A stretch of DNA of 64,000 nucleotides from a virus, in the IMG/VR virus record IMGVR_UViG_3300032516_000009, positions 46,923-110,922 of that record. One strand, given 5' to 3'. How positions within the stretch are numbered: the stretch's first letter is position 1; every line of letters starts with the position of its first letter. The position numbers were made by a program, and so were the translations under genes. This document shows positions 17,100-59,524 of this stretch, piece by piece. Under the pieces are notes generated by a model. That model was not told the origin of the DNA, searched no databases, and was given only the letters and a program-made list of their open reading frames with translations.

Positions 17100-17108
17100 A
17101 ATTATTCG

Positions 17109-17191
17109 CGGAGGGAAGAGGAATCGAACCTCGTGCCTTGCGGCACCCCGGGATTTCCAATCCCGTTACCGACCAATCAGAGGTACCCTCC
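17109..17191 (-). tRNA. tRNA-Ser(GGA), atypical D arm
   Basis: CGGGA-TTGGAAA-TCCCG, long variable arm. Confidence 0.8.
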
Positions 17192-21028: not shown

Positions 21029-21790
21029 TTATTGCTCAATAAAACTATGGCATTTTGGATGAGTTTTTCGATATCTAGCTTTTGTTCTATTAGCTATGCA
21101 TCGTTTACATCGGTAGAGAATATGCCCAGTATTTCGTACATATGTTTCATAGCATTCTGTAAATGGTACGAGTCCGTGTTTCCCACATGAAACGTACCCA
21201 TCCACTTCTCTTCGGAAAGCAGAAGTGGCTTTAGAAAGTGCTAAGCGAGTAGCTTGAGAACACGGTTTACCGATTTGTTGTAACCTAATCTTCTCACGCC
21301 ATTCCAACCACTCCGGTCTAGAAAACACTTCAGATAACGTAGCCGAGATTTTGGCTTTTACAATCGGATCATTAACTATGGTACGCATCTTTTCTCCATG
21401 TTTTCGTCGATACTCAGGATCATTCCAGACATAATTCGGATCTCTCCACGGATTTTTTCGTTCTGGATTAGGTAGATATTTACCGCCTTTTGCTAAATTA
21501 AATCCCTTTTCCGGATTCCTGGCATCATAAAATTCGATCCATTTTTCTTCAGCTAAATTGGCCGCTTCTAATGTATTACATGTCTCCAATATTTCATGAG
21601 AAAATGCATCTTTCCCATATTTACGAATAGCATTCCAGAAATGAGCGCATCTTCTACCCATACCCCTCTTACATGCGTTGTAAACATGTTCATTCCAGCG
21701 TTGAAGCATGCGCTTCTTTGTTAATCCAACGTATTGACGTCCAGACTCAATATGAATATGACAATAAATTGTCCATTTTGAAGATTCCAT
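21029..21790 (-). CDS. GIY-YIG homing endonuclease (Seg-like)
   Basis: TIYCHIH...YVGLT...RWNEH...AIRKYG...GFNLAKGG. Confidence 0.85.
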   Translation of the reverse strand: MESSKWTIYCHIHIESGRQYVGLTKKRMLQRWNEHVYNACKRGMGRRCAHFWNAIRKYGKDAFSHEILETCNTLEAANLAEEKWIEFYDARNPEKGFNLAKGGKYLPNPERKNPWRDPNYVWNDPEYRRKHGEKMRTIVNDPIVKAKISATLSEVFSRPEWLEWREKIRLQQIGKPCSQATRLALSKATSAFRREVDGYVSCGKHGLVPFTECYETYVRNTGHILYRCKRCIANRTKARYRKTHPKCHSFIEQ

Positions 21791-22334
21791 TCTTAAACTG
21801 TACCAGATCAACAATCTTCAGAGAACGGCAGCACCGCATCCCCGTCTCATAAAATTGAAACGCTGGCTCATGAAAATCATTTGATTTGTAGCAAGAACTG
21901 ACGGCGTGAGCCCACCACCCGCCTTTTAAAGTATAAGGCCAGTCACGACCTTTACGTGAAATTACCCATTCTTCAACATTTCCAATTAAGTCATAAACTC
22001 CGCTTGAGGTTCTACAATTAACATATGACCCTGACCTTGAACCCTGCCATAATTCATCATGTCGCCAATTTTTGGACCAAGGAATCCATTGTTTGTCGTT
22101 ATTGCATGGTCCGCTAGAAATTTCGCAAGCGGTGTCCCATTCATATTCAGTGCAGAGCCGCTTACCACGCTCCTTACACCATGTCTGAGCATCAATGGCT
22201 GATTGCATAACTAGCGGAAACGCCCCTTTAACATTGGGCGCTTCATATTTATCTATGCAAAAATATTTAATCGGGGCCATGTCCGCTGGACAAAGCCCCA
22301 AAAAATTAACTACTACAGCGATTAAATCCCACAC
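21747..22334 (-). CDS. FGE-sulfatase (SUMF1-like) domain protein
   Basis: GKRLCTEYEW, GVYDLIGNVEEWV, KGGWW, GMRCC. Confidence 0.85.
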   Translation of the reverse strand: MWDLIAVVVNFLGLCPADMAPIKYFCIDKYEAPNVKGAFPLVMQSAIDAQTWCKERGKRLCTEYEWDTACEISSGPCNNDKQWIPWSKNWRHDELWQGSRSGSYVNCRTSSGVYDLIGNVEEWVISRKGRDWPYTLKGGWWAHAVSSCYKSNDFHEPAFQFYETGMRCCRSLKIVDLVQFKNGIFKMDNLLSYSY

Positions 22335-22423: not shown

Positions 22424-23047
22424 ATGGAGACAATAATTCTGACATGCGAAAAATGTGGCAAGATTTTCGAACGTAATGCATCATTGTATAGATCTGATAT
22501 AAATCGAGGTCGGAGTAGAACGTTTTGTTCCAAATTATGCATCGGGATAACAGGCGCCCCACCTCTTAAGACTAAATGCGATAACTGTGGCAAAGAAATC
22601 ATCAAAACACTTAAAGATGCCAAGAAGTCTTTAAGTGGTAGACATTATTGTTCTATCTCTTGTTCTGTATCAAAAAATAATAAATATAGACTAAATAGGT
22701 CAAAAATACGAATCTGTATTGATTGTGGTTCTACATTTAATAAATGTAGAACCACAAGATGTTCTCATTGTCTTAAAGAATGGAGCAATAGATTATTGAA
22801 ACGGAAAAAGTCAGAAGCTAATAGACAAGATATTGGTTCTCATGCTAGATACGTTGCCAATAAAAATGGGTTATTAGAAAAATGTATGATATGCGGATAT
22901 TCATTTCATGTAGACACGTGTCATCGTAAGGCAGTTAGATCATTTCCTGGCGATACGTTAATTAGAGACATAAACAACATTTCAAATTTATTAGGATTGT
23001 GTAAAAACCATCACTGGGAATTCGATAATAAATTGTTAGCGCTCTAG
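22424..23047 (+). CDS. HNH endonuclease with N-terminal Zn-finger repeats
   Basis: CxxCGK repeats; VDTCH...NLLGLCKNHHWEFD. Confidence 0.85.
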   Translation: METIILTCEKCGKIFERNASLYRSDINRGRSRTFCSKLCIGITGAPPLKTKCDNCGKEIIKTLKDAKKSLSGRHYCSISCSVSKNNKYRLNRSKIRICIDCGSTFNKCRTTRCSHCLKEWSNRLLKRKKSEANRQDIGSHARYVANKNGLLEKCMICGYSFHVDTCHRKAVRSFPGDTLIRDINNISNLLGLCKNHHWEFDNKLLAL

Positions 23048-23182
23048 TGGGGGATTGGGACTCGAACCCAGTGCTTGTTAGGACCACATATTGCTTCCTT
23101 TAATGGGAAGCGAGGAATGGACCTGGGAGCTTGCGCTCCAGCTTGTATGGCTGGCGAGGGAACCACACCCTCTGTATCCCCC
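23048..23182 (-). ncRNA. tRNA-framed Y-RNA-like RNA A1
   Basis: Acceptor GGGGGAT/ATCCCCC, D-like arm and TTCGAGT T arm enclose AGGTCCAT-TCCTC-GCTTCC...GGAAGC-AATAT-GTGGTCCT-AACAAGC. Confidence 0.8.
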
Positions 23183-23186
23183 GAAC

Positions 23187-23312
23187 GAGATCAGAGATTG
23201 GTTGAACGTTCGAGACGTGGTACTTTTGGTTTTGTGCTCCACATTGAGAGCACAAAGGCTGACTTAGACAGTTAGCTTGTTAGCACCACAAATTGAACGC
23301 CCAACTGATCTC
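23187..23312 (-). ncRNA. Y-RNA-like RNA B1
   Basis: GTTC-AATTT-GTGGTGCT-AACAAGC...two hairpins...ACCA..AGTACCAC-GTCTC-GAAC; G:U pairs fix the strand. Confidence 0.8.
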
Positions 23313-23346
23313 CTACTCCGTGACGTGATCTGTCCGTCGCTTTTCC

Positions 23347-23375
23347 ACTTTACACTTGAAAAACCCAAGTGTCAA
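23347..23375 (-). promoter_or_regulatory. Sigma70-type promoter for RNA B1/A1
   Basis: TTGACA-17 nt-TAAAGT. Confidence 0.65.
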
Positions 23376-23386
23376 GTGTCAAAAAA

Positions 23387-23514
23387 TTTGGTGTCCGAGA
23401 TGCGGCGCTGGACTTGGTTGCAATACCGGGTTTGAACCGGCGACTTTCTGTACCAAAACAGATGCCCTACCAACTGGGCGAATTGCGTGTTAGCACCGCT
23501 AGTTGGACACCGAA
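23387..23514 (-). ncRNA. Y-RNA-like RNA B2 enclosing a tRNA-Pro(TGG)-like cloverleaf (23415-23487)
   Basis: GTCC-AACTA-GCGGTGCT-AACACGC [D, anticodon and T arms, ACCA] AGCGCCGC-ATCTC-GGAC. Confidence 0.8.
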
Positions 23515-23612
23515 AATATTTTACACCGAGACTGGTTTATTACGCAAGGTGTAGCGAAATAGTGGAATCGAATAAATTCCCAACATTTCGACTTTTAATT
23601 CTTGCTACAGGT

Positions 23613-24227
23613 ATGAAAATGATTACTCTAGTATGTACGGGATGTGGGAAAAATTTCCAACGAAGAGAATCGTGTTACAAAGCAAACATAGCTCGTGGAA
23701 GAATTAAAGTTTACTGTTCGAGAATTTGTCTAGGGGAGTCTCAACGGGTTCCGATAGCTGAGATTGAATGTAAAAACTGTGGAAAAATAATAGATAGATT
23801 AAATAAAGATGTGAACAGGTCTAAAAATCATTTCTGTTCGATATCATGTTCTACAGTATATAACAATAAACATCGTCAACATAAATTATATACATGTGCA
23901 TGCGGTACTAAATTCATTAGACATAATGGAAGTATAAAATGCAACAAATGTATAGAAACATGGAAAAATAGATTGTTAAAACGAGAAAAATCTAAAGTCG
24001 CTAAACGCGATATTACAGGCAGTGCAAGAATAATAGCAAAAAAACATGGGTTACTAAAACAATGTGCAGTTTGCAGTTATTCTCTACATGTAGACGCGTG
24101 TCATCGTAGATCAATAAATTCATTCCCCGACAATACACTAATTCAAGAAATCAATAATGTAAAAAATCTAATTGGATTGTGTAAAAATCATCATTGGGAA
24201 TTTGATCATGGACATCTTACAATTTAG
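23613..24227 (+). CDS. HNH endonuclease, paralog of 22424
   Basis: VDACH...NLIGLCKNHHWEFD. Confidence 0.85.
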   Translation: MKMITLVCTGCGKNFQRRESCYKANIARGRIKVYCSRICLGESQRVPIAEIECKNCGKIIDRLNKDVNRSKNHFCSISCSTVYNNKHRQHKLYTCACGTKFIRHNGSIKCNKCIETWKNRLLKREKSKVAKRDITGSARIIAKKHGLLKQCAVCSYSLHVDACHRRSINSFPDNTLIQEINNVKNLIGLCKNHHWEFDHGHLTI

Positions 24228-24303
24228 TAGCGGAGGTGAGATTCGAACTCACGATCTCTTGGTTATGAGCCAAGTGGGAACGACCAGACTTCCCTACCCC
24301 GCA
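24228..24303 (-). tRNA. tRNA-Met(CAT), initiator-like
   Basis: CTTGG-CTCATAA-CCAAG; 1:72 mismatch, but only two G:C pairs in the anticodon stem. Confidence 0.8.
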
Positions 24304-24309
24304 ATATTT

Positions 24310-24423
24310 GGAATTGAACGTTCGAGGTGCGACGCTTTTGGGAGTCGGTCATCATTGTGTGACCGACTGTATATTCCTTATGAGGGAATGCGTGTTAGCG
24401 CCGCGAATTGAACATCCATTTCC
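24310..24423 (-). ncRNA. Y-RNA-like RNA B3
   Basis: GTTC-AATTC-GCGGCGCT-AACACGC...two hairpins...CCCA..AGCGTCGC-ACCTC-GAAC. Confidence 0.8.
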
Positions 24424-24433
24424 ACTTTACATT

Positions 24434-24976
24434 TTAGCACCGATTGTTTACGGTGACAAGAATTGATCGCCAAGGCTGGGATCGCCATTCCCCAAATATC
24501 CCCATCTCTGTTACCAGTTTTATTACCGGTATGAACTGTTTCCAGGCTTCATACGGCATATCATTGCGAACGTAATTACACCTAATGCATGCCGGTATAA
24601 CATTATCTTTCATATGAGCCTTATTATTGTCTATCCTATCTAGTGTTATACGTAAAGATTTGCTTCCGCAGTATGAACACCCGTTCTGAATCAGATCGCG
24701 AACGAACTCGCGGTCTAAATCATTACCCTGCCTACCATGTCTCTGATCCGACTGTTTACTATCGTGCACAATAAACGTATGCGGATATTTTTGTCGTCTT
24801 AGGGACCTATACTCTTTTTCCTGTATGGCAGTCTTATTTTTCTGACATTTATTGCATACTCTAGCTCTATGGCCATTCCATATACGACCACGTGACCCTG
24901 TAGGTCTAAGCCAACTCTTGGGAAACGCAGTAATCTTTTTCTTTAGAAGACATTTAGTACAGACTCTATGATCCAT
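24434..24976 (-). CDS. HNH-like endonuclease
   Basis: CSYCG...LDRIDNNKAH...NVIPACIRCN. Confidence 0.8.
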   Translation of the reverse strand: MDHRVCTKCLLKKKITAFPKSWLRPTGSRGRIWNGHRARVCNKCQKNKTAIQEKEYRSLRRQKYPHTFIVHDSKQSDQRHGRQGNDLDREFVRDLIQNGCSYCGSKSLRITLDRIDNNKAHMKDNVIPACIRCNYVRNDMPYEAWKQFIPVIKLVTEMGIFGEWRSQPWRSILVTVNNRC

Positions 24977-25039
24977 ACTAACAAGCACTATGAAAGGTTT
25001 AGCACATGCTTGTTAGGTCTCCCTGATGGACGCGAGTAG

Positions 25040-25166
25040 CGGGGTGTTCCGGATTCGAACCGGTGCTTGTGAGGACTACCGAGTGCTTCCTTAATAGAAG
25101 CGAGGAGCAATCCTGGTTGTTCCCAATTGCAAATAACTGGTGGGCTGCCATTGCCCTGTACACCCC
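25040..25166 (-). ncRNA. tRNA-framed Y-RNA-like RNA A2
   Basis: Acceptor GGGGTGT/ACACCCC, D and T arms; AGGATTGC-TCCTC-GCTTCT...GGAAGC-ACTCG-GTAGTCCT-CACAAGC. Confidence 0.8.
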
Positions 25167-25170
25167 AAAA

Positions 25171-25257
25171 TGTAAACGTTCGAGACGCGGTGCTTGGTTT
25201 CAGCTTCTTTACCTTAGCAGGGTATTGCTTGTTAGCACTGCAATTTGAACGCCTACA
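25171..25257 (-). ncRNA. Y-RNA-like RNA B4
   Basis: GTTC-AAATT-GCAGTGCT-AACAAGC...ACCA-AGCACCGC-GTCTC-GAAC. Confidence 0.8.
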
Positions 25258-25279
25258 TCAAACTTTACATTGAGCCATA

Positions 25280-25855
25280 TTAAATGCGAGTGGCCCCGCC
25301 CGGGAAGATTTGATATCCGATTTTCTTCCCGTGTTCGATGAAAATCTGAACTGACATGGCCATATATGACGAAACTATTGAAATAAATGGCAAATGTTCC
25401 CCATTTTCACAGGTAGCAGCCCCGGCATTAGTTTCATCGTCAATTTGGAAGCTTTCGTCCCAAATGGATCGACCGAATTGTCCATCGGCAGCCAGCGCGC
25501 CATGAAGACATGGAACCTTATTCTGGCGTGCGAAATTTTGCACCAGCCTTCGAGCTTCACCATTATCTAAACAATCAACGATAAGATCTGACTGTGAAAG
25601 AAGTTGACTATCGTTATTAGCTACGAGTTTGTGAGGAATTACCTGAACCTTCAAACCAAATAGAAATTGCAGTGTCTGCTGAAGTGCCACCACCTTGGCC
25701 TTCCCGACGGAAGATTTGGCGTGGAACTGGGACATTACGTTCTTCTGTTCAATTCTATCAAAGTCAATAACGCGGATGGACACGCCTAGATTCCGCAGCA
25801 AAGGAACCAAATGAGAACCCAGTGCCCCAACACCAACGATCGTTACAATCTTCAT
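25280..25855 (-). CDS. ThiF/MoeB-family E1-like adenylyltransferase
   Basis: IVGVGALGS, IDFDRIEQKN..SQ, GKAKV, IVDCLDN, candidate catalytic Cys in ATCE. Confidence 0.9.
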   Translation of the reverse strand: MKIVTIVGVGALGSHLVPLLRNLGVSIRVIDFDRIEQKNVMSQFHAKSSVGKAKVVALQQTLQFLFGLKVQVIPHKLVANNDSQLLSQSDLIVDCLDNGEARRLVQNFARQNKVPCLHGALAADGQFGRSIWDESFQIDDETNAGAATCENGEHLPFISIVSSYMAMSVQIFIEHGKKIGYQIFPGGATRI

Positions 25856-26088
25856 TTATTCTTCTTGGTCTTTATGCGTTTACGAACATTAGTCTTTCCG
25901 CGCCACCGGCAATTTTGTTCGTGTTTCTTAGCGCTCTTCTCAGCAGATTCCTGGGTGAAGAACTTATAACTGGATCCCCAATAAGCTTCACATACCCCAT
26001 CGAAATCTGCTGAGAAGCACCCGTGTCGATTGTCTCGCCCATCACAGCGGTATTCCCAATCACGGGTCTTTTTACGTGCAGTAGCCAT
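25852..26088 (-). CDS. Small basic Cys/His protein between Ubl and E1
   Basis: GAGGA RBS, ATG 26088, ATGA overlap with E1. Confidence 0.6.
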   Translation of the reverse strand: MATARKKTRDWEYRCDGRDNRHGCFSADFDGVCEAYWGSSYKFFTQESAEKSAKKHEQNCRWRGKTNVRKRIKTKKNK

Positions 26089-26098
26089 GAATTCCTCG

Positions 26099-26467
26099 TT
26101 ACCCCCGGAGCCGGCGCCGACGTCCGAATGGCGTCTTAGGTCGAAGCATGCAACGTGCGACAGGCACGGCCTCATTCGCCGGGAACCTATCGACCACGAA
26201 ATCCGTGAAATCCGCATTCGGATCGGCCGGAATTCCCGGCACGCTCCCAGCACGTACAGCCTCGGTCGCCCAACGCTTAATGTCTGCGTCACTGGCGTCC
26301 CTAGTTACTGGATCGGGCAAATCCCCGTTGGCGCCATTGTAGGTTACGTTGAGTCTGGCCATGTCGGCTTCCATGACCTCAGCAACCATACTCATGCGCT
26401 CTCCAGGCTCCCCAACTAGGTCAACAGCCGCCTCAATCCTATCAACCGCGTCGTTTCGATCTACCAT
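26099..26467 (-). CDS. Ubiquitin-like (beta-grasp) protein with C-terminal extension
   Basis: AGGAGGAG RBS; strand-strand-helix-strand pattern ending LRPKTPFG-RRRRLRG; operon context. Confidence 0.65.
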   Translation of the reverse strand: MVDRNDAVDRIEAAVDLVGEPGERMSMVAEVMEADMARLNVTYNGANGDLPDPVTRDASDADIKRWATEAVRAGSVPGIPADPNADFTDFVVDRFPANEAVPVARCMLRPKTPFGRRRRLRG

Positions 26468-26513
26468 TTGCGTCTCCTCCTGTTATTTACACCGGAAGTC
26501 TTGAAATTTACGA

Positions 26514-26726
26514 CTATCGTGAATGAATATATTCTTTCCACATATCATCCCAATAATCAGCGTATTCTTTTGAACAATCTTCGCAGAACCAATATCCCGC
26601 ACCAACCTCTTCATCAGCATAGGCCGTAAGAGACGGGTGAAACGCTATCTCTTTCGTATCGCCACATCGTTCACATTCGACTTCCATCACCTCAGTAACT
26701 ATGGCAATGGCGTCTGTGGCATTCAT
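26514..26726 (-). CDS. Small Zn-finger protein
   Basis: CERC...CEDC. Confidence 0.6.
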   Translation of the reverse strand: MNATDAIAIVTEVMEVECERCGDTKEIAFHPSLTAYADEEVGAGYWFCEDCSKEYADYWDDMWKEYIHSR

Positions 26727-27235
26727 GTAACTGGATGCAACTGCTGGATCATTTGTTCCATATATTCAAGCTGATCCTGCGGCCCAATAACTTCACGCCG
26801 CGTATCACCTGCTTTAACTAGGATGATGATTTTATCTGATGCAAGATGATTCAGTAAATCTTGTGATTTATCAAAAGAGCCCGGAATAACCTCCCTGGCA
26901 ACCAATGCCTGCCCTCCGGGATAAATAATGGCTCTATCATTTGCCAATGTCACATCAAATACGATCCCCAAGGAGTCAGGTCGATCCTTATTAGTAAGTA
27001 ATCCTAATCGCCAAAGACAACTCCATGCTCTGCATCCAGATGGGCGCTTGTTGTAAATAGCGCAGCCATCTTGGCCAACGTGCGGACATGATTCGAATGC
27101 GGGTTTATTGATTTCTCCAACAGCCTGAGAAAAACAACAAGCCGTACAGGGGCCACAGCAGCGATTCTTCATCGCTTGCTTGATCGAATGCTGCATCTGT
27201 TTTTTAGATGCCCTGCGAGCCGCTCTATTACTCAT
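26723..27235 (-). CDS. YkgJ-like CxxCxxCC cysteine-cluster protein
   Basis: CGPCTACC...CPH...CAIYNKRPSGCRAWSCLW. Confidence 0.8.
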   Translation of the reverse strand: MSNRAARRASKKQMQHSIKQAMKNRCCGPCTACCFSQAVGEINKPAFESCPHVGQDGCAIYNKRPSGCRAWSCLWRLGLLTNKDRPDSLGIVFDVTLANDRAIIYPGGQALVAREVIPGSFDKSQDLLNHLASDKIIILVKAGDTRREVIGPQDQLEYMEQMIQQLHPVT

Positions 27236-27439
27236 CTAGCTATCCTGTATTGATTCGACGATTGCGACACTACATTCTCCGATAATGCTATCTTCTAAAC
27301 CATCACCCGTAACATAAGTTGTGCTGTTATTGTAGCTTACTGGAGGGTTCCCGCGTAAAACTAAGAGATGCCACCCGCAGCGGCATTCCCATTCGTCATT
27401 GGGCCCATTTCTTCCTATCCATTTCCATTTGTGTGACAT
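27236..27439 (-). CDS. HxW-CxxC-C Zn-finger microprotein with C-terminal tag
   Basis: MSHKW...CRCG...ECSVAIVESIQDS. Confidence 0.65.
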   Translation of the reverse strand: MSHKWKWIGRNGPNDEWECRCGWHLLVLRGNPPVSYNNSTTYVTGDGLEDSIIGECSVAIVESIQDS

Positions 27440-27645
27440 TATTCGTTCTGTATTGATCTAACAATTTTTACATCACATTCATCATACATATTTTCAACTG
27501 GTTCTCCTATAATCGTTAAATCAATTTCTGGAGATAACCCCGGTCTTGTCATAATGTAACTGCCGCATCTTTTACATGTCCATTCATCGTACATGGGGGT
27601 AGCACCCTTGTGCACTCTGGTTGATTTTTCCCATTCATGTGCCAT
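27439..27645 (-). CDS. HxW-CxxC-C Zn-finger microprotein with C-terminal tag
   Basis: MAHEW...CKRCG...ECDVKIVRSIQNE. Confidence 0.65.
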   Translation of the reverse strand: MAHEWEKSTRVHKGATPMYDEWTCKRCGSYIMTRPGLSPEIDLTIIGEPVENMYDECDVKIVRSIQNE

Positions 27646-28015
27646 ATGAGGCTTTACGTAGATCGTCGACCCAATCTAAACAATCACTCAATTCCGATTC
27701 CAGATTTGATACTTGATAATCACATTTATCCGGTCCTTTCCACATAACTAATGAAACATAATACTGATTGATTATCCACCAGTTGAGTCTTCGACCTAAA
27801 GCCGCTTCGACTGCGGCAAAAGTCGTAATATCTTCCCAGGAAGGCCCAACAGGCCCGCTACCTGGATGGGAATGAGCAAATCCATCCAAGGTGTGCCTGA
27901 ATTTCCAAAATTGATTCCATAATTCAGTACTATCTGGTAGACATGAAGTACTGCGATCCGGTGGTATGTGCCAGTATAATGGTTCACCTTTACTAATTAT
28001 TACACCTGCTTCCAT
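27635..28015 (-). CDS. JAB/JAMM (MPN+) metallopeptidase
   Basis: N-terminal Glu plus HSHPGSGPVGPSWED (HxH-x-S-x2-D). Confidence 0.85.
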   Translation of the reverse strand: MEAGVIISKGEPLYWHIPPDRSTSCLPDSTELWNQFWKFRHTLDGFAHSHPGSGPVGPSWEDITTFAAVEAALGRRLNWWIINQYYVSLVMWKGPDKCDYQVSNLESELSDCLDWVDDLRKASYGT

Positions 28016-28071
28016 AACTAAAAATACATGAATGAAATAACCATTTTCGGATTTTAATCATTATTTCAGTT

Positions 28072-28857
28072 ATGAGAAAATGGCGAGACGATCAATTGAT
28101 CGAAGCTGTTAAAGCATCCCGTAATATATCAGAAGTAATAACTAGATTATATGATACGGAATGCGGTGGTCATTTTAAAACAGTTTGGAAATATGTTAAC
28201 CAATTACAATTAGATGTATCTCATTTTTCTAAGATCCCGGGTCCTACCGGTGTTGAATACCAGCCACAATATACGGATTCAATTCTATGTGAAAATAGTT
28301 CTATAAGTCATGGTACATTGCGTGCGTATTTATTACGTAATCGGATTATTCCATATACATGTATTCTATGTAATAATGACGGATATCATAATGGCAACAG
28401 GTTAGTATTACAATTAGACCACATAAATGGCATTAAAAATGATAATAGGACAACGAATCTTAGATTTTTATGCCCAAACTGTCATAGTCAAACGAAGACT
28501 TTCGGTAGAAAATCGCCAAAACCCTGCCCGAAGGGTCGAATTGGATCACTAAAATCGCCATGCCCACCACGCAGAAAATTAGACCATTCAAAAATATTAT
28601 CATTATATGAACAAGGCATAAGCATGCCAATTATAGCTCATCAATTTGGAGTTAAACACGCCGCTATACGGTACATATGTAAAAAATCACATATGTATAA
28701 GGGCAGAAATGAACATAGAGACCTAGTTAATTTGCGTAAACAAGCAATCTCCATGGTAAACTCCGGTCACAGTAGACGCAAAGCAGCAAGTTTACTTGGG
28801 GCTTCTAATAATTCAGTGGCTCGATGGATACGTGAACAAAATCACATCACTTCATAG
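28072..28857 (+). CDS. HNH homing endonuclease with two HTHs, inserted antisense in the operon
   Basis: LQLDHINGIKNDNRTTNLRFLCPNCHSQT. Confidence 0.9.
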   Translation: MRKWRDDQLIEAVKASRNISEVITRLYDTECGGHFKTVWKYVNQLQLDVSHFSKIPGPTGVEYQPQYTDSILCENSSISHGTLRAYLLRNRIIPYTCILCNNDGYHNGNRLVLQLDHINGIKNDNRTTNLRFLCPNCHSQTKTFGRKSPKPCPKGRIGSLKSPCPPRRKLDHSKILSLYEQGISMPIIAHQFGVKHAAIRYICKKSHMYKGRNEHRDLVNLRKQAISMVNSGHSRRKAASLLGASNNSVARWIREQNHITS

Positions 28858-29039
28858 ATTCTACGAGTCACTTGGGGAATTGAAGCTTCCCGGAACTTGT
28901 AGTCCGTGCGTTCGTCTACGGCCTCGATTTCAAGCATTGACCCGTCGGTGAACTCAATGGAGCCATACTTAATGTCTAGGTTTACACTCTTGATGGTCTT
29001 ATTTGCGATCTTCTCCGCAATCTCATAGCTTTTCGTATA

Positions 29040-30017
29040 TTACCAATCCTCGTCTTCATCTCTATCATCGTCCACGTGTCTGAACACATGAAGTACCCTC
29101 TTGTGTTCCGCTTCTCTAATTACACCCGGAAGGGATTCTAGCGTGAAGTACGCATCCCCTCTCTCCCCAGTGTGGTGATCAGTTAAACAAATACCAGCTT
29201 CAATTATCTGAAGAGTGCGTGCATCACACGTACATTCGAATCGTCTTTGGTTTATCCTGAATGTAACAACCATTTCACCACGATTGTATGAACATCGGTG
29301 ATCTAAGTACTCAGCGCCTCCAATAGCCAGAGCCGCTCGAGCCGCTTCCCCGAAATCGACTTGTGCCATGGTGCGACGACCAGCGGCATCACCAAGCTGT
29401 TTGACTAATTGCGCTCGCCGTTCTTCCTTTGCTCGCCGTTCTTCCTCTTCTACTCGGCGTCGTTCGGCTTCAGCTCGGCGTCGTTCGGCTTCAGCACGAT
29501 ACCAAGTCTCCATTCTGAACGCTGCATCGAGTGCTGGCGAAACACCTTGAACATCATTGACAGAATCAGCTCTGTTTTGATATGCTTCTGCGACTTTCTC
29601 TTCCGGTCCTAATGGCATTTCTTGATTTTGGTAGATCAGCGGGCCATCGTCACAAACTCGACCGGCAGCAATACGAACAAACCTATCGAGTCCAGGTTCG
29701 ATCAAATAAACTTGTTCTGAACAACTGATAAGTTGTGTGGGATCCGGGTCAACTCGAACATTATCGAGGACAATCCGATCTCCAATTAGATACCCATGAA
29801 CTACGGACCTTAGGATTTCTGGTATTGCGTCAGCAGTTCCTTTAACCGTAGCTTTGCGAGCGGAAATTTTGAAACTAAACCATCCATGCTCGCGGGGTAA
29901 TGCCCCGTCAATATGCCATACACGATCGATAGATCGGAGAGATCTACTTCCAGTCCAAGGAAGAACTGTAACTTCTTCGTTAGATTGTAGTAGATCTCTC
30001 CAACCCATCACTGTCAC
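29040..30017 (-). CDS. Putative E2/UBC-like protein with coiled coil
   Basis: C-terminal AGICL motif then LESLPGVI helix, reminiscent of the UBC GxICL catalytic Cys; coupled to the TROVE-like gene. Confidence 0.5.
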   Translation of the reverse strand: MTVMGWRDLLQSNEEVTVLPWTGSRSLRSIDRVWHIDGALPREHGWFSFKISARKATVKGTADAIPEILRSVVHGYLIGDRIVLDNVRVDPDPTQLISCSEQVYLIEPGLDRFVRIAAGRVCDDGPLIYQNQEMPLGPEEKVAEAYQNRADSVNDVQGVSPALDAAFRMETWYRAEAERRRAEAERRRVEEEERRAKEERRAQLVKQLGDAAGRRTMAQVDFGEAARAALAIGGAEYLDHRCSYNRGEMVVTFRINQRRFECTCDARTLQIIEAGICLTDHHTGERGDAYFTLESLPGVIREAEHKRVLHVFRHVDDDRDEDEDW

Positions 30018-31876
30018 GCAGCAAATGATGGCTTAGCTAGAAGATCCGTTTGTAGGATCGTCTCGACCAAAGATACACGGTGAACCGTGCGACTTACAGT
30101 GGTCTTCGACTGCCCGACCGGAGTAGACGCTACGAGCGCCCTGATCGTACGCGGAATCGCGTACACATCCTCGAACGTCTTTTCATCGATCAAGAAGCAT
30201 GGGATCTTCAGCTGATCTGCCGTGTCCTGAACCGCCCTGTAGTGAGGATTGTTCCTGACTTTGACAAATCCGAATGCCATCGGGTTCAGGCCCGACGCAT
30301 TCACCGCTGCAGTGAATGGCCCCGCTTCCTCATCCCCAATGAACATAAATAGTGTGTCTTCGTTTGGAAGAGGCTGATACTTCATCAAGGCCCTGACGCC
30401 AGCGCCGTAATCGGTCCCGCCGCCCGCGGAAATACCACGGAAGGCGTTCTCGACCCCGGCAGCGGAGGGATGCTTCAAGGGGAGTTCACGTCCTGCCGTA
30501 TTGAAGACGGAGATGTGAACCTTATCCGGTGGAAACGCCTGGAGAAACTTAGCTACGTGGCTCTTCGCCTGGACAATAGCATCCTCCATGGACCCGGAAA
30601 TATCAACCATGAAGTAGACTCGGATTCCCTTCATGACTTCCTCTACCGCCTTTTGAACGGCGGTGTCAGCAGCCTCTTGAAGTTTTTCCTTCGTCTGCTT
30701 GTTCTTCACCCTGGATGCGATATTGGCAGCGCGCATGTCATCTGCAGACTTAACTGCCTTTTCCCAACGGTTCTTGACTTCCTGTACCTTCAGTAGGCCA
30801 AGCTCTTCAAGTGTTGGCGTTGCGATGATCAAGTCCTTGTCAGACATGGCCCCGGATTCGATGGCCGCTGTGACGATGGCTCGAGTGAGTCCAACGCTCT
30901 TCGGCACCAGTCCGACAATGCGCTTATACCCGGGCTTCTCCTTGATGATTTGTTCGCAGATCTGCATCTCATTAAGATCGCCCCAGTTGTCCGCCGCCTT
31001 CACCGCTTGTCCGATGGCCATCGTGCGACGACCATCCTTGGCCTGGGACTGCTTCCAGCGCAAAGCTTCAAAGAATTGCGGCATGATAGGCTTGTAACCT
31101 ACCCGACGCGCCAATTCCATGACAGTCGTGCGGAATCCCGCCTTCATAAGCCCCCGCATCAGATTCGGATTGGCCTCTCGGTGTTCCAGCCATTTCGTTA
31201 CAACCTTTGGCCATCGACCGAGGAACGGATGACGAGCCGACTTGCCGAAACCAAGCTCGCGATTGATCTCGGCCACTTGAGGCATGGACAAGATATCGTG
31301 AATACGCAGAAGTAACTTGGGATTTAGGTCCTTACCGTCACGACGAATGATCAGCGCCATGGCTTCTCCGACGTCTCTATAGTCTTCGTCATGAAATGCG
31401 ACGGTGTCACCATCCTTAACCGGATCGCCCTTACGGCTCTGTACAAGCATCAATGCCGCAAGAACGACTTTGAGATCCCGATGCTCCTGAGCGAAAGCGT
31501 AAGACGCCCATCGAGCGGAGAACTCGTTGTCAAGTCGCCAAACCTCAACGACTTGGCGATACATCCAGGTAACAACTTCAGGAAAGAGTCCTGCCGGTCG
31601 GTAGTCACCGACCTTCCTGCGGTCTTCGGTACGAATAGTATTATCGGCCCAAAGAGTACCAATCTTGACCTTGTTTGTCTTTCGTCCAACCTTGGTCAGT
31701 TGATACACAACCTTTTGACCGTTCTCCTCCTTATGGGTTACGGGAGTCCATTTCACTCCAACAACCGCAGTGGGATCGGGAACCACGATCCCCGGCCTTC
31801 CGTGATATGCATGATCCACATATGACAAAATGGACTGAATAGTGCGCTCGGCTGGTCCTAAATTCTCATTTTGCAC
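30014..31876 (-). CDS. Ro60/TROVE-like helical domain plus vWA protein
   Basis: C-terminal VDISGSM...GGGTD...FIGDEE; N-terminal DNEFSARWASYA..E.RDL..VLAAL and LARRVGYKP resemble TROVE motifs; GTG start with AGGAG RBS. Confidence 0.7.
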   Translation of the reverse strand: MQNENLGPAERTIQSILSYVDHAYHGRPGIVVPDPTAVVGVKWTPVTHKEENGQKVVYQLTKVGRKTNKVKIGTLWADNTIRTEDRRKVGDYRPAGLFPEVVTWMYRQVVEVWRLDNEFSARWASYAFAQEHRDLKVVLAALMLVQSRKGDPVKDGDTVAFHDEDYRDVGEAMALIIRRDGKDLNPKLLLRIHDILSMPQVAEINRELGFGKSARHPFLGRWPKVVTKWLEHREANPNLMRGLMKAGFRTTVMELARRVGYKPIMPQFFEALRWKQSQAKDGRRTMAIGQAVKAADNWGDLNEMQICEQIIKEKPGYKRIVGLVPKSVGLTRAIVTAAIESGAMSDKDLIIATPTLEELGLLKVQEVKNRWEKAVKSADDMRAANIASRVKNKQTKEKLQEAADTAVQKAVEEVMKGIRVYFMVDISGSMEDAIVQAKSHVAKFLQAFPPDKVHISVFNTAGRELPLKHPSAAGVENAFRGISAGGGTDYGAGVRALMKYQPLPNEDTLFMFIGDEEAGPFTAAVNASGLNPMAFGFVKVRNNPHYRAVQDTADQLKIPCFLIDEKTFEDVYAIPRTIRALVASTPVGQSKTTVSRTVHRVSLVETILQTDLLAKPSFAA

Positions 31877-33232: not shown

Positions 33233-33247
33233 GTTTTTATATCACAG

Positions 33248-33320
33248 CGCTCCCGGCGGGAATCGAACCCGCGCCTCCAGATTGAGGGTCTGGCCACCTA
33301 ACCGCTAGTAAGACGGGAGC
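33248..33320 (-). tRNA. tRNA-Glu(CTC), second copy, C33
   Basis: CCAGA-CCCTCAA-TCTGG. Confidence 0.85.
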
Positions 33321-34917: not shown

Positions 34918-34935
34918 GTTTCACATTACAATCAG

Positions 34936-35551
34936 TGCCCCTGGCGGGATTCGAACCCGCGAAATTCAGACACCTAATTGGATCGAATTCCATACGCAGT
35001 ATGTTTCCGGTGACAATTTGAACAAATCAATTCACATTTAGAAAGTTCCTTTACAATATTATCCCAACTCTGACGCATTAAATTAGTCCAGTCCATTTCC
35101 TTTTCTTTTATATGGTGGAAATCATAAATGCATGGGTCATCTACAATATTACAACAGACGCATTTTCCGCCTAGAAATGCAACTGCTTTTGCTTTAACTT
35201 TTTTCCATCGATTTGCTTGATATTCATCCTGGCAAACTCTACAATACGCACATAAATATGTTCGTTTTGAATTGTAGAATCTGAATTCCGTAGCAGGTTT
35301 AGTATCTTTACATTTGGCACAATGTTTTGGTTTCATCCCTTCATAATATGGCGCTAATTTAGCCCGAGCCAGACGGACTTTATTATTCTGAGCACAAACT
35401 CCACCACAAAATTTTCCTCTTGCCGATCTATTACGTTTACGAAGTACTTTTAAATCAAATTCTTGTTTGCATTCGATACATATCATACACTACTTTAGTC
35501 ATAGAAAGACTAAAGATGTCTCAGGTGCTCGAACCTCCGAGCGTCGTGGGC
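34936..35551 (-). tRNA. Interrupted tRNA-Arg(TCT)-like gene enclosing an HNH ORF
   Basis: 5' acceptor plus D arm at 35551-35525, hairpin with loop TTTCTAT, T arm plus 3' acceptor at 34961-34936; flanking helix AGACAT/GTGTCT. Confidence 0.6.
34974..35486 (-). CDS. HNH endonuclease inside the interrupted tRNA
   Basis: GGKCVCC...YDFHH...KCELICSNCHRKH. Confidence 0.85.
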   Translation of the reverse strand: MICIECKQEFDLKVLRKRNRSARGKFCGGVCAQNNKVRLARAKLAPYYEGMKPKHCAKCKDTKPATEFRFYNSKRTYLCAYCRVCQDEYQANRWKKVKAKAVAFLGGKCVCCNIVDDPCIYDFHHIKEKEMDWTNLMRQSWDNIVKELSKCELICSNCHRKHTAYGIRSN

Positions 35552-35884: not shown

Positions 35885-35913
35885 ACTAATTGTTTCCATA
35901 ACAGACTTATAGG

Positions 35914-35982
35914 TCGGACTGGCCGGACTCGAACTGGCGACTGGTCCCGAACCACGCGCGCTACCAACTGCGCTACAGCCCG
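35914..35982 (-). pseudogene. Degenerate tRNA-Pro(CGG)
   Basis: About 4 nt deleted from the 3' anticodon stem/variable loop. Confidence 0.7.
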
Positions 35983-36149: not shown

Positions 36150-36881
36150 ATGGGGTATCGAACTTGGACAGATAAAGATCTAGAGTTAGCGGTTAAATCA
36201 AGTAAGACCAAATCAGATGTTATTCGTAAACTTGGACTAAAATCCAATAGTTCTGGTAATTTTCAGGTTATCGACATCCATATTAAACGACTCGGGTTGG
36301 ATATAGCACATTTTCACGAAGTCGTATTAGGAAAACCTAGCAAACCGAAACAGATTGAGGATTTATTAATTAAAAACAGTACTTATACAAATACTGGAAA
36401 ACTCAAGTCTAGATTAATTAGAGCTGGTCTTCTTAGAGAAGAGTGTTATGAATGTAAAACAACCACATGGATGGGTAAAAAGTTATCTCTACAACTTGAT
36501 CACATAGACGGTGATCGAAGTAATAATGAATTAAACAATCTTAGACTGTTATGCCCAAACTGTCACTCTCTAACATCAACTTATTCCCGTTCCCGTACTA
36601 AAATGCAGAATAAACTATCAGAAAATAAGTGTAAATGCGGAGCATTTATTTGTCGGCGTTCCAGCATGTGTATTACTTGTGATGCTATTTCTAGGAGAGG
36701 TAAAAATTTAAAAATTAAATGGCCAAACATGAAAACATTACTAAATATGGTGGAAGAAGCCGGATATGTTCAAACTGGTGTTAAATTAGGCGTTTCGGAT
36801 AGAGCCGTAAAAAAACATATTCTCAGAAATAACAAGAACTGCGCACCGAATGGCAGTAGAAAATTGACAGTACCCGAGTAA
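36150..36881 (+). CDS. HNH homing endonuclease with HTH
   Basis: LQLDHIDGDRSNNELNNLRLLCPNCHS; LGVSDRAVKK. Confidence 0.9.
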   Translation: MGYRTWTDKDLELAVKSSKTKSDVIRKLGLKSNSSGNFQVIDIHIKRLGLDIAHFHEVVLGKPSKPKQIEDLLIKNSTYTNTGKLKSRLIRAGLLREECYECKTTTWMGKKLSLQLDHIDGDRSNNELNNLRLLCPNCHSLTSTYSRSRTKMQNKLSENKCKCGAFICRRSSMCITCDAISRRGKNLKIKWPNMKTLLNMVEEAGYVQTGVKLGVSDRAVKKHILRNNKNCAPNGSRKLTVPE

Positions 36882-37023
36882 TGAAGCTGGATCTTTGACA
36901 GATTGAATATCTGTTGCCTTACCATTAGGCTATTCCCCCATTGTAGAGTCAGATGACTCGGCGGGGAAAGGGGACTCGAACCCCCATAGCTTTTGCTTGT
37001 GAGCTTCACGTAGTGGGTACTGC
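36867..37023 (-). ncRNA. YrlA-like RNA C1 (circularly permuted tRNA on the shared module)
   Basis: GTACCC-ACTAC-GTGAAGCT-CACAAGC, then T arm, acceptor closed by a GAGTC/GACTC hairpin, D arm, anticodon-like arm, then AGCTTCAT-TACTC-GGGTAC. Confidence 0.85.
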
Positions 37024-37025
37024 GG

Positions 37026-37099
37026 TGCTCCCACCGGGGTACGATCCCGGACCTCCAGCTTGAAGGGCTGGCCACCTATCCGTTTAGTTAGATGGGAGC
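37026..37099 (-). tRNA. tRNA-Glu(TTC), C33
   Basis: CCAGC-CCTTCAA-GCTGG; T loop ATCGTAC. Confidence 0.85.
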
Positions 37100-37956: not shown

Positions 37957-38007
37957 AGCCCGCTGCGACTTACGAAATCACTGCTCTACCTGCTGAGCTA
38001 TGTGGGC
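37957..38007 (-). pseudogene. tRNA-Thr(CGT) remnant lacking the T arm
   Basis: D and anticodon arms nearly identical to the 13723 tRNA; 51 nt. Confidence 0.75.
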
Positions 38008-38015
38008 AAAAGCTG

Positions 38016-38176
38016 AGTATCCGAGGAGAAGGACGTTGTCTTTACTCAAGACGGATTGAAAGATCCGTTGCCTATTCCATTCGGCCACTCCGGCAGATTT
38101 AGAGTCTAAAGACTCGGAGCCGGAGGCAGGAGTCGAACCTGCATTTTGTGCGTGTTTGTCCATCGAATCGGATACC
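38016..38176 (-). ncRNA. YrlA-like RNA C2 (circularly permuted tRNA on the shared module)
   Basis: GTATCC-GATTC-GATGGACA-AACACGC, T arm GCAGG-TTCGACT-CCTGC, acceptor CTCCGGC/GCCGGAG closed by a GAGTC/GACTC hairpin, D arm, then CGTCCTTC-TCCTC-GGATAC. Confidence 0.85.
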
Positions 38177-59141: not shown

Positions 59142-59420
59142 GGTGATTAAAAAAACCTAGTATGGGACCCGAGAATTTAGCTAAGAATAGTCATCATAAC
59201 CATGACTTTATAGTAGAGATTCTTCTTCAGTTAATATATTATACCATATTTGCCAATAATCATAGTAGTCATGATTGTCGATTGATAAAAATATATTGGA
59301 CGAAGAACAATATCAAACGCTTTTGGGTATATTCGACCAATGGTCGAATGAGCTAAATAATCGAGTAATAGATTATTATACAAAACATACAATCACCAGC
59401 AAATATTAAATAACCGAACT

Positions 59421-59476
59421 GTTGGGTCGTTGGGTCGTTGGGTCGTTGGGTCGTTGGGTCGTTGGGTCGTTGGGTC
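59421..59476 (+). repeat. Tandem repeat (GTTGGGTC)x7
   Basis: Seven perfect 8-mers. Confidence 0.95.
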
Positions 59477-59524
59477 CTCCGAATAATATACATACAATTT
59501 GAAGATTTTCATATAAAAGTTTTG

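What the first reader, a model, noticed from the sequence alone, without database searches (positions are those of the whole stretch)
23187..25257. B-type RNA cargos display anticodon-loop and NCCA mimics
B2 encloses a near-complete tRNA-Pro(TGG) cloverleaf ending ACCA. B3 has hairpin ATTCC-CTCATAA-GGAAT, the same loop as the adjacent tRNA-Met. B4 has TACC-CTGCTAA-GGTA, a Ser(GCT)-type loop. All four B cargos contain NCCA at or near their 3' end, and B1 and B3 share CAATG in a second hairpin loop. Inference: a modular decoy library for anticodon- or CCA-targeting toxins.
Basis: partly seen in the sequence, partly recalled or inferred. Interest (0 to 1): 0.7.

Follow-up and report, generated by a model that had tools for sequence, protein, structure and literature searches.

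The report
Phage Y-like RNAs displaying tRNA pieces
The four "B" elements are small structured RNAs of a huge phage that share one conserved two-helix handle and each display a tRNA look-alike or just an anticodon hairpin; they lie beside a hidden relative of the RNA-binding ring protein Ro60, so they are probably an undescribed kind of Y RNA, and their use as decoys is still untested.

Summary
The sequence features are real. B2 holds a tRNA-like cloverleaf, B3 a perfect tRNA-Met-type anticodon hairpin and B4 a Ser(GCU)-type one. Two such hairpins in three short heads has a shuffle probability of 5e-5. All four B elements read CCAA near the 3' end of the head.

B1-B4 belong to a family of about 96 RNAs in 40 related huge-phage contigs. 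All share a handle: a 9-bp helix, an internal loop with conserved A and CUC, a 7-bp helix, then YACAMGC. All lie on the strand of a conserved 620-aa protein. That protein has no Pfam TROVE hit, but its N-terminal model matches the three Ro60 structures best among 48,161 chains, and it carries a vWA domain.

Most heads are whole or circularly permuted tRNA mimics with canonical anticodon loops. The anticodon is the fastest-changing part between close relatives.

CCA is not enriched family-wide. It is one variant of an A/C-rich junction strand.

Best reading: Ro60-partner Y-like RNAs with tRNA-piece heads. The decoy idea is compatible but unproven. The CCA half is unsupported.

This scan has already found the same kind of handle-tagged tRNA-mimic RNAs beside Ro60-like genes on other phage DNA. 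I found no paper or Rfam family describing it.

The parts
23189..23311 (-). B1: handle RNA with a short head. The head is hairpin GCUAACU-GUCUA-AGUCAGC, then a 10-bp hairpin with a UCAAUG loop, then ACCAAAA.
   Evidence: Fold -47.6 kcal/mol, z -7.5. Descriptor score 16. Absent from the near relative in run X5, joint 23185->23387.
23388..23513 (-). B2: handle RNA with a class I head. The head is a tRNA-like cloverleaf with a 5-bp acceptor, a D arm, an anticodon arm with the 6-nt loop UUUGGU and a T arm, followed by AACCAAGUCC.
   Evidence: Rfam tRNA 41.8 bits. Aligns with 37 class I relatives, and RNAalifold recovers P1, P2, D, AC and T helices.
24305..24425 (-). B3: handle RNA with a short head. 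The head is anticodon-arm mimic AUUCC-CUCAUAA-GGAAU (24373-24389), a 9-bp hairpin with loop CACAAUGA (24343-24368), then CCCAAAA.
   Evidence: P2 pair 24331/24402 changes G-C to A-T in a near relative.
25169..25260 (-). B4: handle RNA with a minimal head. The head is anticodon-arm mimic UACC-CUGCUAA-GGUA (25210-25224), then an A-rich stretch ending AACCAA.
   Evidence: The near relative reads 25217 G>T, so the anticodon changes GCU to GAU.
23048..23184 (-). A1: oversized tRNA-shaped RNA. Its long variable arm is a capped copy of the same handle (…CCUCG-hairpin-…GUGGUCC-UAACAAGC). It lies 6 nt downstream of B1.
   Evidence: Fold. Shares the 27-nt repeat family D18 with the B elements. About 75 such RNAs occur in relatives.
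25038..25166 (-). A2: second oversized tRNA-shaped RNA with the handle as its variable arm. It lies 3 nt downstream of B4.
24227..24303 (-). tRNA-Met(CAU), directly downstream of B3 on the same strand.
   Evidence: ARAGORN. Rfam 56.5 bits.
36867..37023 (-). F: handle RNA with a circularly permuted tRNA-like head (T arm, closed acceptor, D arm, anticodon arm).
   Evidence: Descriptor score 16. Sub-threshold Rfam YrlA hit of 23.9 bits over the T-acceptor-D core.
38017..38175 (-). E: second handle RNA with a permuted tRNA-like head. Its anticodon loop is CUUUCAA.
30014..31876 (-). Gene of a 620-aa divergent Ro60-like protein: an N-terminal helical-repeat (TROVE-like) ring plus a C-terminal vWA domain with an invariant D-x-S-x-S.
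   Evidence: Pfam VWA_2 8e-8, no TROVE hit. AF2 models. N-terminal domain against 48,161 chains: the top three are Ro60 structures (Z 10.6, 9.8, 9.2) and the next is 6.0. vWA Z 16. Invariant D425, S427, S429.
25280..25855 (-). ThiF/E1-like gene, the last gene of the cassette between the Ro60-like gene and the RNA array. B4 starts about 20 nt after its stop.
   Evidence: Pfam ThiF 5.9e-26.
22424..23047 (+). HNH homing-endonuclease-like gene on the opposite strand, abutting A1.
   Evidence: Pfam HNH_2 8.9e-6.
23613..24227 (+). Second HNH endonuclease-like gene, lying between B2 and tRNA-Met. It is missing in a near relative.
   Evidence: Pfam HNH_2 1.9e-6. Joint 23510->24087 in run X4.
24431..24459 (-). 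Sigma-70-like promoter match (TTGTCA-17-TAAAAT) ending about 6 nt before B3.
   Evidence: Consensus scan only.
23347..23375 (-). Sigma-70-like promoter match (TTGACA-17-TAAAGT) about 35 nt before B1.
   Evidence: Consensus scan only.

Best explanation
B1-B4 are four members of a large family of small structured RNAs of huge phages.

What the sequences show. Each RNA has a constant handle. The 5' and 3' ends pair into a 9-bp helix (P1), closed by a C-G pair. An asymmetric internal loop follows, with a conserved A on the 5' side and CUC on the 3' side. Then comes a 7-8-bp helix (P2) and the motif YACAMGC. The handle carries a variable head. In most members the head is a tRNA mimic, either in normal order and joined through a 5-bp acceptor (as in B2) or circularly permuted (as in E and F). 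In B1, B3 and B4 the head is reduced to one or two hairpins. In B3 and B4 one of these hairpins is a faithful anticodon arm.

What is inferred. By analogy with Y RNAs, the handle docks the phage's own divergent Ro60-like ring protein, which is encoded a few kb upstream on the same strand. The head would then bring in, or hold, proteins that recognise tRNA or its anticodon arm. The RNAs are probably cut out of short transcripts together with the neighbouring tRNA or tRNA-shaped A RNA.
For: Family and strand.
- A structure descriptor finds 96 elements in 40 related loci plus the window. At the top score there are 52 hits on the strand of the Ro60-like gene and 1 on the other strand.
- In the whole 111-kb contig there are only six hits, all on the minus strand, all within 7 kb of that gene.
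- Median distance downstream of the gene is 3.6 kb.

Structure.
- RNAalifold on 38 class I members predicts P1, P2, D, anticodon and T helices on its own. 27 of 31 pairs show compensatory changes.
- ACA-GC, CUC and the C-A step are invariant.
- A near relative shows a G-C to A-T double change in P2 of B3.

Partner protein.
- The N-terminal domain model matches 1yvp, 2nvo and 9l5y (all Ro60) at Z 10.6, 9.8 and 9.2. The next chain scores 6.0.
- There is a C-terminal vWA domain with DxSxS.
- More than 1,600 homologs exist, mostly on contigs of 100-600 kb.

Heads.
- 35 of 38 class I heads have 7-nt anticodon loops, with C32 in 30/35, U33 in 29/35 and a purine at 37 in 34/35.
- The B3 and B4 hairpins have a shuffle probability of 5e-5.

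Known precedent. Bacterial and phage Y RNAs lie near Ro60 on the same strand and mimic tRNA (PMC4201824). Thermus phage Ro60 binds two phage Y-like RNAs (PMC12135203).

Transcription. Promoter-like sites lie directly upstream of B1 and B3 on the minus strand.
Against: - No RNA data exist for this virus, so transcription, strand and RNA ends are inferred.
- Binding of the handle to the Ro60-like protein is inferred from gene neighbourhood and analogy only.
- The handle lacks the GNCGAA / CGAA motif that marks the Ro60 site on the 5' strand of known Y RNAs. Its conserved CUC lies on the 3' strand.
- The protein fails the Pfam TROVE model. The full-length model has TM of only about 0.3 to Ro60.
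- P1 and P2 covariation is partly built in, because members were selected for pairing.
- P2 of B4 has an A-C mismatch on the minus strand that would be a G-U on the plus strand.
- A ubiquitin-like cassette (E1, JAB) lies between the gene and the RNAs and could be the real partner.
Confidence: 0.6

Rival explanations
1. Decoy library. The heads are baits that soak up or block host anticodon nucleases or other tRNA-targeting toxins, and each RNA copies one target tRNA.
For: - Heads copy the anticodon-loop frame of many different tRNAs.
- B3 and B4 display a bare anticodon arm.
- In the seven closest pairs, the anticodon triplet differs at 76% of positions, against 6% in the handle core.
- Near relatives of B4 and B2 change only the loop letters between kept stems: GCU to GAU, and UUUGGU to CUACGAA or CAGAAA.
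- Position 34 is A in 14/35 heads and G in 3/35. Asp-, Asn- and His-type loops carry G34 to A (AUC, AUU, AUG) and none carries GUN, as expected of a bait that binds but is not processed.
- The phage carries a large tRNA array, a known answer to tRNA-cleaving defences (established knowledge).
Against: - There is no nuclease, no cleavage data and no binding data.
- Fast change of the triplet could equally mean that the triplet is unconstrained.
- Short heads in the 12 related cases of this clade carry no anticodon-type loop.
- The CCA half is not supported.
- Known Y RNAs act as tethers or gates, not decoys.
Confidence: 0.2
2. Processing or precursor elements. The handle is a leader-trailer duplex that guides maturation of a real tRNA or tRNA half from the head, or of the downstream tRNA or A RNA.
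For: - B elements sit 3-6 nt upstream of A1, A2 and tRNA-Met.
- Relatives pack A and B RNAs 4-10 nt apart.
- Class I heads score as tRNA at 41-61 bits.
Against: - Class I heads have 5-bp acceptors, no free CCA end, frequent C33 or A34 and some 6-nt loops.
- B1, B3 and B4 have no D or T arm.
- The internal-loop bases are invariant across distant phages, which points to a bound factor rather than a disposable flank.
Confidence: 0.08
3. DNA-level repeats: inverted-repeat mobile elements or homing-endonuclease target sites that spread within the tRNA array, with no RNA function.
For: - Two HNH genes and one GIY-YIG gene lie in the array.
- B1 and HNH-2 are present or absent between near relatives.
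Against: - Helix sequences differ freely between copies while pairing is kept.
- G-U pairs outnumber A-C on the gene strand, 83 to 33.
- Hits are almost exclusively on one strand.
- Mobile-element terminal repeats would be conserved in sequence, not in pairing.
Confidence: 0.04

Closest known systems
YrlA-type bacterial and phage Y RNAs with Ro60/Rsr (Rfam RF02553; Chen et al. 2014, PMC4201824; Wang et al. 2018, 10.1101/312249)
   Same: - Small RNAs encoded near a Ro60-type gene and on its strand.
- The ends pair into a long stem with an internal loop.
- The other end mimics tRNA. Class II heads share the T arm, closed acceptor, D arm order, and score 24-25 bits on the YrlA model over that core.
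   Different: - No member reaches the Rfam cut-off of 69 bits, and B1-B4 give no hit at all.
- The conserved handle bases are A / CUC plus YACAMGC, not GNCGAA on the 5' strand.
- Heads keep an anticodon arm, which YrlA lacks.
- The stem joins at the acceptor (class I) or at the variable-arm position (class II and A RNAs), not at the anticodon stem.
- There are two to six or more copies per genome, with different heads, some reduced to bare hairpins.
Thermus phage phiLo Ro60 with Yrl1/Yrl2 (PMC12135203; PDB 9KOP, 9L5Y)
   Same: A phage-encoded Ro60 with several phage-encoded partner RNAs near its gene. The phiLo protein is among the three best structural matches of the window's protein.
   Different: - Yrl1 and Yrl2 were picked by a CGAA motif in a large bulge, and the paper does not describe them as tRNA mimics.
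- Sequence identity is only 15-18%.
- The window's protein has an extra N-terminal beta-rich part.
Handle-tagged tRNA-mimic RNAs beside Ro60-like genes, noted earlier by this scan in other phages (handle: 7-bp stem plus ACAGCAA)
   Same: - The same design: a short conserved helix followed by an ACA-GCA-type motif.
- Cargo of whole tRNA bodies or bare anticodon arms.
- A Ro60-shaped protein gene next door.
- Anticodon letters swapped between relatives.
   Different: - Those are AI notes that I could not check.
- The motif here has one more base (ACA[A/C]GCA).
- There is a second outer helix with a conserved CUC loop.
- A ubiquitin-like cassette lies between the gene and the RNAs.
- No sequence look-alike was found in the index.
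Ordinary phage tRNA genes and tRNA pseudogenes
   Same: B2 and the other class I heads have D, anticodon and T arms and score above the Rfam tRNA cut-off.
   Different: - 5-bp acceptor.
- No free 3' end.
- Enclosed by two conserved helices.
- A34 is common and G34 rare.
- B2 is no closer to tRNA-Pro than to other tRNAs.

Membership tests
Y RNA / YrlA (Rfam RF02553) | Encoded close to a Ro60 gene and on the same strand | tested here: met
   All six handle RNAs of the contig lie within 7 kb of the Ro60-like gene on its strand. 52 of 53 top-score hits in relatives are on the gene's strand.
Y RNA / YrlA (Rfam RF02553) | 5' and 3' ends form a long stem interrupted by an internal loop | tested here: met
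   Single folds. RNAalifold gives P1 of 9 bp and P2 of 8 bp with compensatory changes.
Y RNA / YrlA (Rfam RF02553) | GNCGAAN0-1G (CGAA) motif near the 5' end, the proposed Ro60 contact | tested here: not met
   On the 5' side only the C-A step is conserved. The invariant CUC(G) lies on the 3' strand.
Y RNA / YrlA (Rfam RF02553) | Score at or above the Rfam gathering cut-off (69 bits) | tested here: not met
   No YrlA hit to B1-B4 at E<=10. Class II members give partial hits of 23.9 and 25 bits.
Y RNA / YrlA (Rfam RF02553) | tRNA-like domain in the order T arm, closed acceptor, D arm, with the Ro60 stem in place of the anticodon stem | tested here: not met
   B2 has normal tRNA order, is joined at the acceptor and keeps an anticodon arm. 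B1, B3 and B4 have no T or D arm. Class II has the permuted order but keeps an anticodon arm.
Y RNA / YrlA (Rfam RF02553) | Bound by Ro60 in the cell | not testable with these tools
   No RNA-protein binding tool was available, and no RNA run holds this DNA.
Ro60 / TROVE protein (partner gene 30014-31876) | Helical-repeat TROVE ring | tested here: met
   At fold level only. The N-terminal model (pLDDT 82) against 48,161 chains gives 1yvp Z 10.6 (285 aligned, rmsd 4.9), 2nvo Z 9.8 and 9l5y Z 9.2. The next chain scores 6.0.
Ro60 / TROVE protein (partner gene 30014-31876) | Match to the Pfam TROVE profile (PF05731) | tested here: not met
   No hit in the contig or in the protein at E<=1. A profile search against PDB sequences finds only vWA proteins.
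Ro60 / TROVE protein (partner gene 30014-31876) | C-terminal vWA domain with a MIDAS motif | tested here: met
   VWA_2 at 8e-8. Z 16 to vWA domains. Invariant D425, S427, S429.
tRNA (RF00005), for the head of B2 | Cloverleaf scoring above the cut-off, with a 7-bp acceptor, a 7-nt anticodon loop and a free 3' end | tested here: not met
   The score of 41.8 bits passes the 29-bit cut-off. However, the acceptor has 5 bp, the loop has 6 nt, and the 3' side runs on into the handle.
Anticodon stem-loop consensus (5-bp stem, loop Y32-U33-NNN-R37-N38), for the B3 and B4 hairpins | Stem plus 7-nt loop with the conserved frame | tested here: met
   B3 has 5 bp and CUCAUAA. B4 has 4 bp and CUGCUAA. The shuffle probability is 5e-5.
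3'-terminal NCCA mimic | CCA conserved after a helix across the family, and above chance | tested here: not met
   CCA is in 19 of 96 tails, against about 34% expected from composition. The consensus is N-[A/U/C]-C-A-A-A-A, and it is internal.

The most novel reading that the evidence does not exclude
Huge phages run a programmable bait system. A diverged Ro60 ring holds a set of handle RNAs whose heads copy the anticodon arms or whole bodies of chosen host or phage tRNAs. These include uncleavable G34-to-A copies of the queuosine-family tRNAs. The system would capture, block or hand over to degradation the host's tRNA-cutting defence enzymes or tRNA-modifying enzymes. The anticodon letters would be re-written quickly as the targets change.
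Probability: 0.17. Interest if true: 0.85.

Novelty: new variant of a known kind. Interest (0 to 1): 0.62.

Why it matters
Ro60 and Y RNAs are known from animals, some bacteria and a few phages, but what decides which partners a Y RNA brings to Ro60 is still open.

Here one handle carries many different heads: whole tRNA mimics, permuted ones and bare anticodon arms. This is a natural series in which head and handle can be separated and tested.

If the heads are baits for tRNA-directed enzymes, this would be an RNA-based counter-defence in the phage-host conflict over tRNA. It would also explain why these RNAs sit inside large phage tRNA arrays.

Even without that, the family is large: about 100 copies in 40 contigs sampled here, and over 1,600 homologs of the protein. 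It is absent from Rfam and from the papers I could search.

Tried and rejected
- Plus-strand reading. On the plus strand B2 begins GGUGUCCGAG, which recalls the GGUCCGA / CGAA Ro60 site of known Y RNAs. I rejected this because the T loops (UUCRANY), D loops and tRNA-model scores of the heads fit only the minus strand, which is the gene's strand.\n- Exact-motif scans of viral contigs. One gave only chance or coding matches and the other gave none.\n- Megablast of 10 kb against phage records gave no match.\n- Pfam TROVE and RtcB searches in the contig found nothing. The contig is an estimated 26% of the genome.\n- The full-length protein model in the second-look structural search was swamped by vWA hits. 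There is no tandem G-A, no reverse transcriptase nearby, no Rfam hit, and the elements are too short.\n- The apparent mini-ORF (UUG UGG UGC UAA) across P2 and the motif was dropped, because UAA is not kept in A2 or in relatives.\n- PMC10870794 (a Ro60 review) is not held.
Full report
**Context**

The window is part of a 110,922-base virus record judged about 26% complete, that is, a huge phage. It carries 38 tRNA genes, all on the minus strand. Homing-endonuclease genes are scattered among them (HNH_2 at 22424-23047 and 23613-24227; GIY-YIG at 21029-21814). Rfam at its curated cut-offs finds only tRNAs.

**The observation**

On the minus strand the four B elements have one plan:
- an outer helix P1, for example GGGCGUUC / GAACGUUC;
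- an internal loop, 5' side AAUUUG, 3' side CGUCUC;
- a second helix P2;
- the motif UAACA(A/C)GC;
- a variable head;
- an A/C-rich strand ending CCAA.

All four fold far better than shuffles (z -3.7 to -7.5).

B2's head is a cloverleaf that scores 41.8 bits on the tRNA model. It differs from a real tRNA in three ways. Its acceptor has 5 bp. Its anticodon loop has 6 nt (UUUGGU). It is only 63% identical to the phage's tRNA-Pro(UGG), no closer than to Lys or Phe tRNAs.

B3 carries AUUCC-CUCAUAA-GGAAU. The loop is identical to that of the adjacent tRNA-Met. B4 carries UACC-CUGCUAA-GGUA. The phage's tRNA-Ser(GCU) loop is UUGCUAA.

In 20,000 dinucleotide shuffles of the three short heads, two or more such hairpins (stem of at least 4 bp, loop CU-NNN-AA) arose with frequency 5e-5. 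B1 has no credible anticodon-type hairpin. CAAUG does lie in the second hairpin loop of both B1 and B3.

**What the elements belong to**

Earlier notes of this scan pointed to a TROVE-vWA gene nearby. Pfam finds only a vWA domain in the 620-aa product of 30014-31876. I therefore tested the fold.
- The full-length model (pLDDT 77) has Ro60 structures as its top full-length Foldseek matches, but with TM of only about 0.3.
- The N-terminal 410 residues were modelled alone (pLDDT 82) and aligned to 48,161 representative chains.
- The three Ro60 representatives came out as the three best matches: 1yvp Z 10.6, 2nvo Z 9.8, 9l5y Z 9.2, each over 256-285 residues. The next chain scored Z 6.0.
- The C-terminal domain is a vWA fold (Z 16) with an invariant D-x-S-x-S.

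The architecture is therefore that of Ro60, strongly diverged. The protein has more than 1,600 homologs at E below 0.001, mostly on contigs of 100-600 kb.

**Relatives**

I fetched 65 related loci through this protein and searched them with a structure descriptor: P1, 5' loop, P2, [A/C/U]ACA[A/C]GC, head, P2', loop ending CUC, P1'.
- At the top score there were 52 hits on the strand of the protein gene and 1 on the other strand. At the next two scores there were 23 against 4 and 38 against 7.
- After removing overlaps and hits inside coding regions, 96 elements remain in 40 loci plus the window. They lie a median of 3.6 kb downstream of the gene.
- In the window's own 111-kb contig the descriptor finds only B1-B4, E and F, all on the minus strand.

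MAFFT plus RNAalifold on 38 members with whole tRNA-like heads predicts P1, P2 and the D, anticodon and T helices without my structure. 27 of 31 pairs show changes on both sides. Selection for pairing biases the P1/P2 counts, but not those of the head helices.

The invariant bases are ACA-GC, CUC and the C-A step after P1.

A near relative seen in sediment metagenome contigs changes the B3 P2 pair 24331/24402 from G-C to A-T.

**Heads**

Of the 96 members:
- 40 have a tRNA-like head in normal order, joined through a 5-bp acceptor whose first two pairs are the GC of the motif. This is class I, and B2 belongs here.
- 35 have a circularly permuted tRNA-like head (T arm, closed acceptor, D arm, anticodon arm). 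This is class II, and the window's E and F belong here.
- 15 have short heads (B1, B3 and B4 among them), and six have long heads with no recognisable T loop.

In the class I alignment, 35 of 38 anticodon loops have 7 nt. C32 occurs in 30/35, U33 in 29/35 and a purine at position 37 in 34/35.

The 12 short heads of relatives in this clade carry no anticodon-type loop. Bare anticodon arms are therefore a peculiarity of the window's B3 and B4 within this sample.

**The CCA**

After the acceptor 3' strand the class I consensus is N-[A/U/C]-C-A-A-A-A-Y-C. CCA is present in 8 of 38 class I members and in the last 12 nt of 19 of 96 heads overall. The composition of that strand (A 43%, C 31%) predicts about 34%. 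The string is internal, not a 3' end.

B1, B3 and B4 share nearly the same P1, so they are recent paralogs and not independent cases. The NCCA-mimic part of the finding is therefore not supported.

A weaker form remains open. In B1, B3 and some relatives, a long hairpin followed by an A/C-rich single strand may imitate an acceptor minihelix.

**Variation**

- In the seven closest class I pairs (70-88% identical), the anticodon triplet differs at 76% of positions. The motif and the CUC loop differ at 6%, and positions 32-33 at 14%.
- Contigs of near relatives show the same pattern. B4's copy has 25217 G>T, which turns the loop CUGCUAA into CUGAUAA, the phage's own tRNA-Ile loop. B2's copies have CAGAAA or CUACGAA between the same stems.
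- One relative lacks B1 altogether. Another lacks the second HNH gene.
- Position 34 is A in 14 of 35 class I loops and G in 3. The phage's own 37 tRNAs have A34 once and G34 14 times. AUC, AUU and AUG loops keep the frames of Asp, Asn and His tRNAs, and no head has GUN.

These patterns fit display of chosen anticodons under selection. They come from small, related samples.

**Mechanism**

Shown:
- a conserved handle with variable tRNA-derived heads;
- strand-specific linkage to a Ro60-fold gene;
- tight packing with tRNA-shaped A RNAs whose long variable arm is a capped copy of the handle.

Inferred:
- The handle binds the Ro60-like ring, as Y RNA stems bind Ro60 (PMC4201824; PMC12135203).
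- The head engages tRNA-recognising proteins.
- The RNAs are transcribed from the minus strand. Promoter-like sites lie just upstream of B1 and B3 (consensus matches only).
- Their ends are set by processing of the adjacent tRNA or A RNA.

Whether the heads tether enzymes to Ro60, gate it, or act as decoys cannot be told from sequence.

**Comparison with known families**

The closest family is YrlA. The resemblances are the same-strand linkage, the terminal stem and the tRNA mimicry. Class II heads give partial YrlA hits of 24-25 bits over the T-acceptor-D core.

Membership fails on three tested features:
- the Rfam score (cut-off 69 bits);
- the GNCGAA motif;
- the attachment point and the absence of an anticodon arm in YrlA.

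I therefore file this as a new variant of the Ro60/Y-RNA kind, not as YrlA.

I found no paper describing it. A jumbo-phage survey notes only that a few such phages have a TROVE protein with a tRNA-like partner (PMC7824862).

This scan has already reported the same design on other phage DNA: a short helix plus an ACAGCAA-type motif, tRNA or anticodon-arm cargo, and a Ro60-shaped neighbour. Those notes are unchecked leads. No sequence look-alike of B1 is in the index.

**Verdict**

Interest is moderate to high for the family as a whole. This particular finding adds the bare anticodon arms of B3 and B4, and the loop hypervariability.

Noticed in passing
alignment A4 (38 class I heads from L084-L149 and window 23388-23513): Position 34 of the displayed anticodon loops is A in 14/35 and G in 3/35. 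Loops of Asp, Asn and His type read AUC, AUU and AUG, and none reads GUN. The phage's own tRNAs have A34 once and G34 14 times.
   Followed up: partly
window 23048-23184 and 25038-25166; about 75 copies in L084-L149: Oversized tRNA-shaped RNAs (A type). They have a 7-bp acceptor, D, anticodon and T arms, often an encoded NCCA end, and the handle as a capped long variable arm. They alternate with B-type RNAs at 4-10 nt spacing.
   Followed up: partly
window 24978-25016: Perfect palindrome CTAACAAGCA...TGCTTGTTAG, a duplicated handle motif. It lies at the start of the minus-strand ORF 24434-24988 (weak HNH-like match), just downstream of A2.
   Followed up: no
window 25280-30017: A ThiF/E1-like gene, a weak JAB-like gene (27635-28015) and small ORFs lie between the Ro60-like gene and the RNA array. 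An HNH/HTH gene is inserted on the other strand (28072-28857). Earlier notes call this a ubiquitin-like cassette.
   Followed up: partly
window 33247-33320: The phage's own tRNA-Glu(CUC) has the anticodon loop CCCUCAA, that is, C instead of the near-universal U at position 33.
   Followed up: no
window 17101-17130, 34926-34962, 35912-35982, 36956-37097, 37907-38016: Further tRNA-like stretches that ARAGORN did not call. Some score 24-44 bits on the tRNA model, and one has a long insert.
   Followed up: no
L112:11691-11814: A class I-like member whose T arm is replaced by a second anticodon-type hairpin (GUGGU-CUCAUAA-ACCAC), in addition to CUGAUAA in the normal place.
   Followed up: no
L106:19111-19202, L110:21533-21627, L112:11294-11386, L130:8709-8807: A separate short-head type shared by four relatives: a small GC hairpin plus CUUCC-UACCAUCU-GGAAG. 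L121 and L144 share a long hairpin with loop CGGAGU.
   Followed up: no
window 59413-59484: Nine or so tandem copies of the 8-nt unit GTTGGGTC.
   Followed up: no
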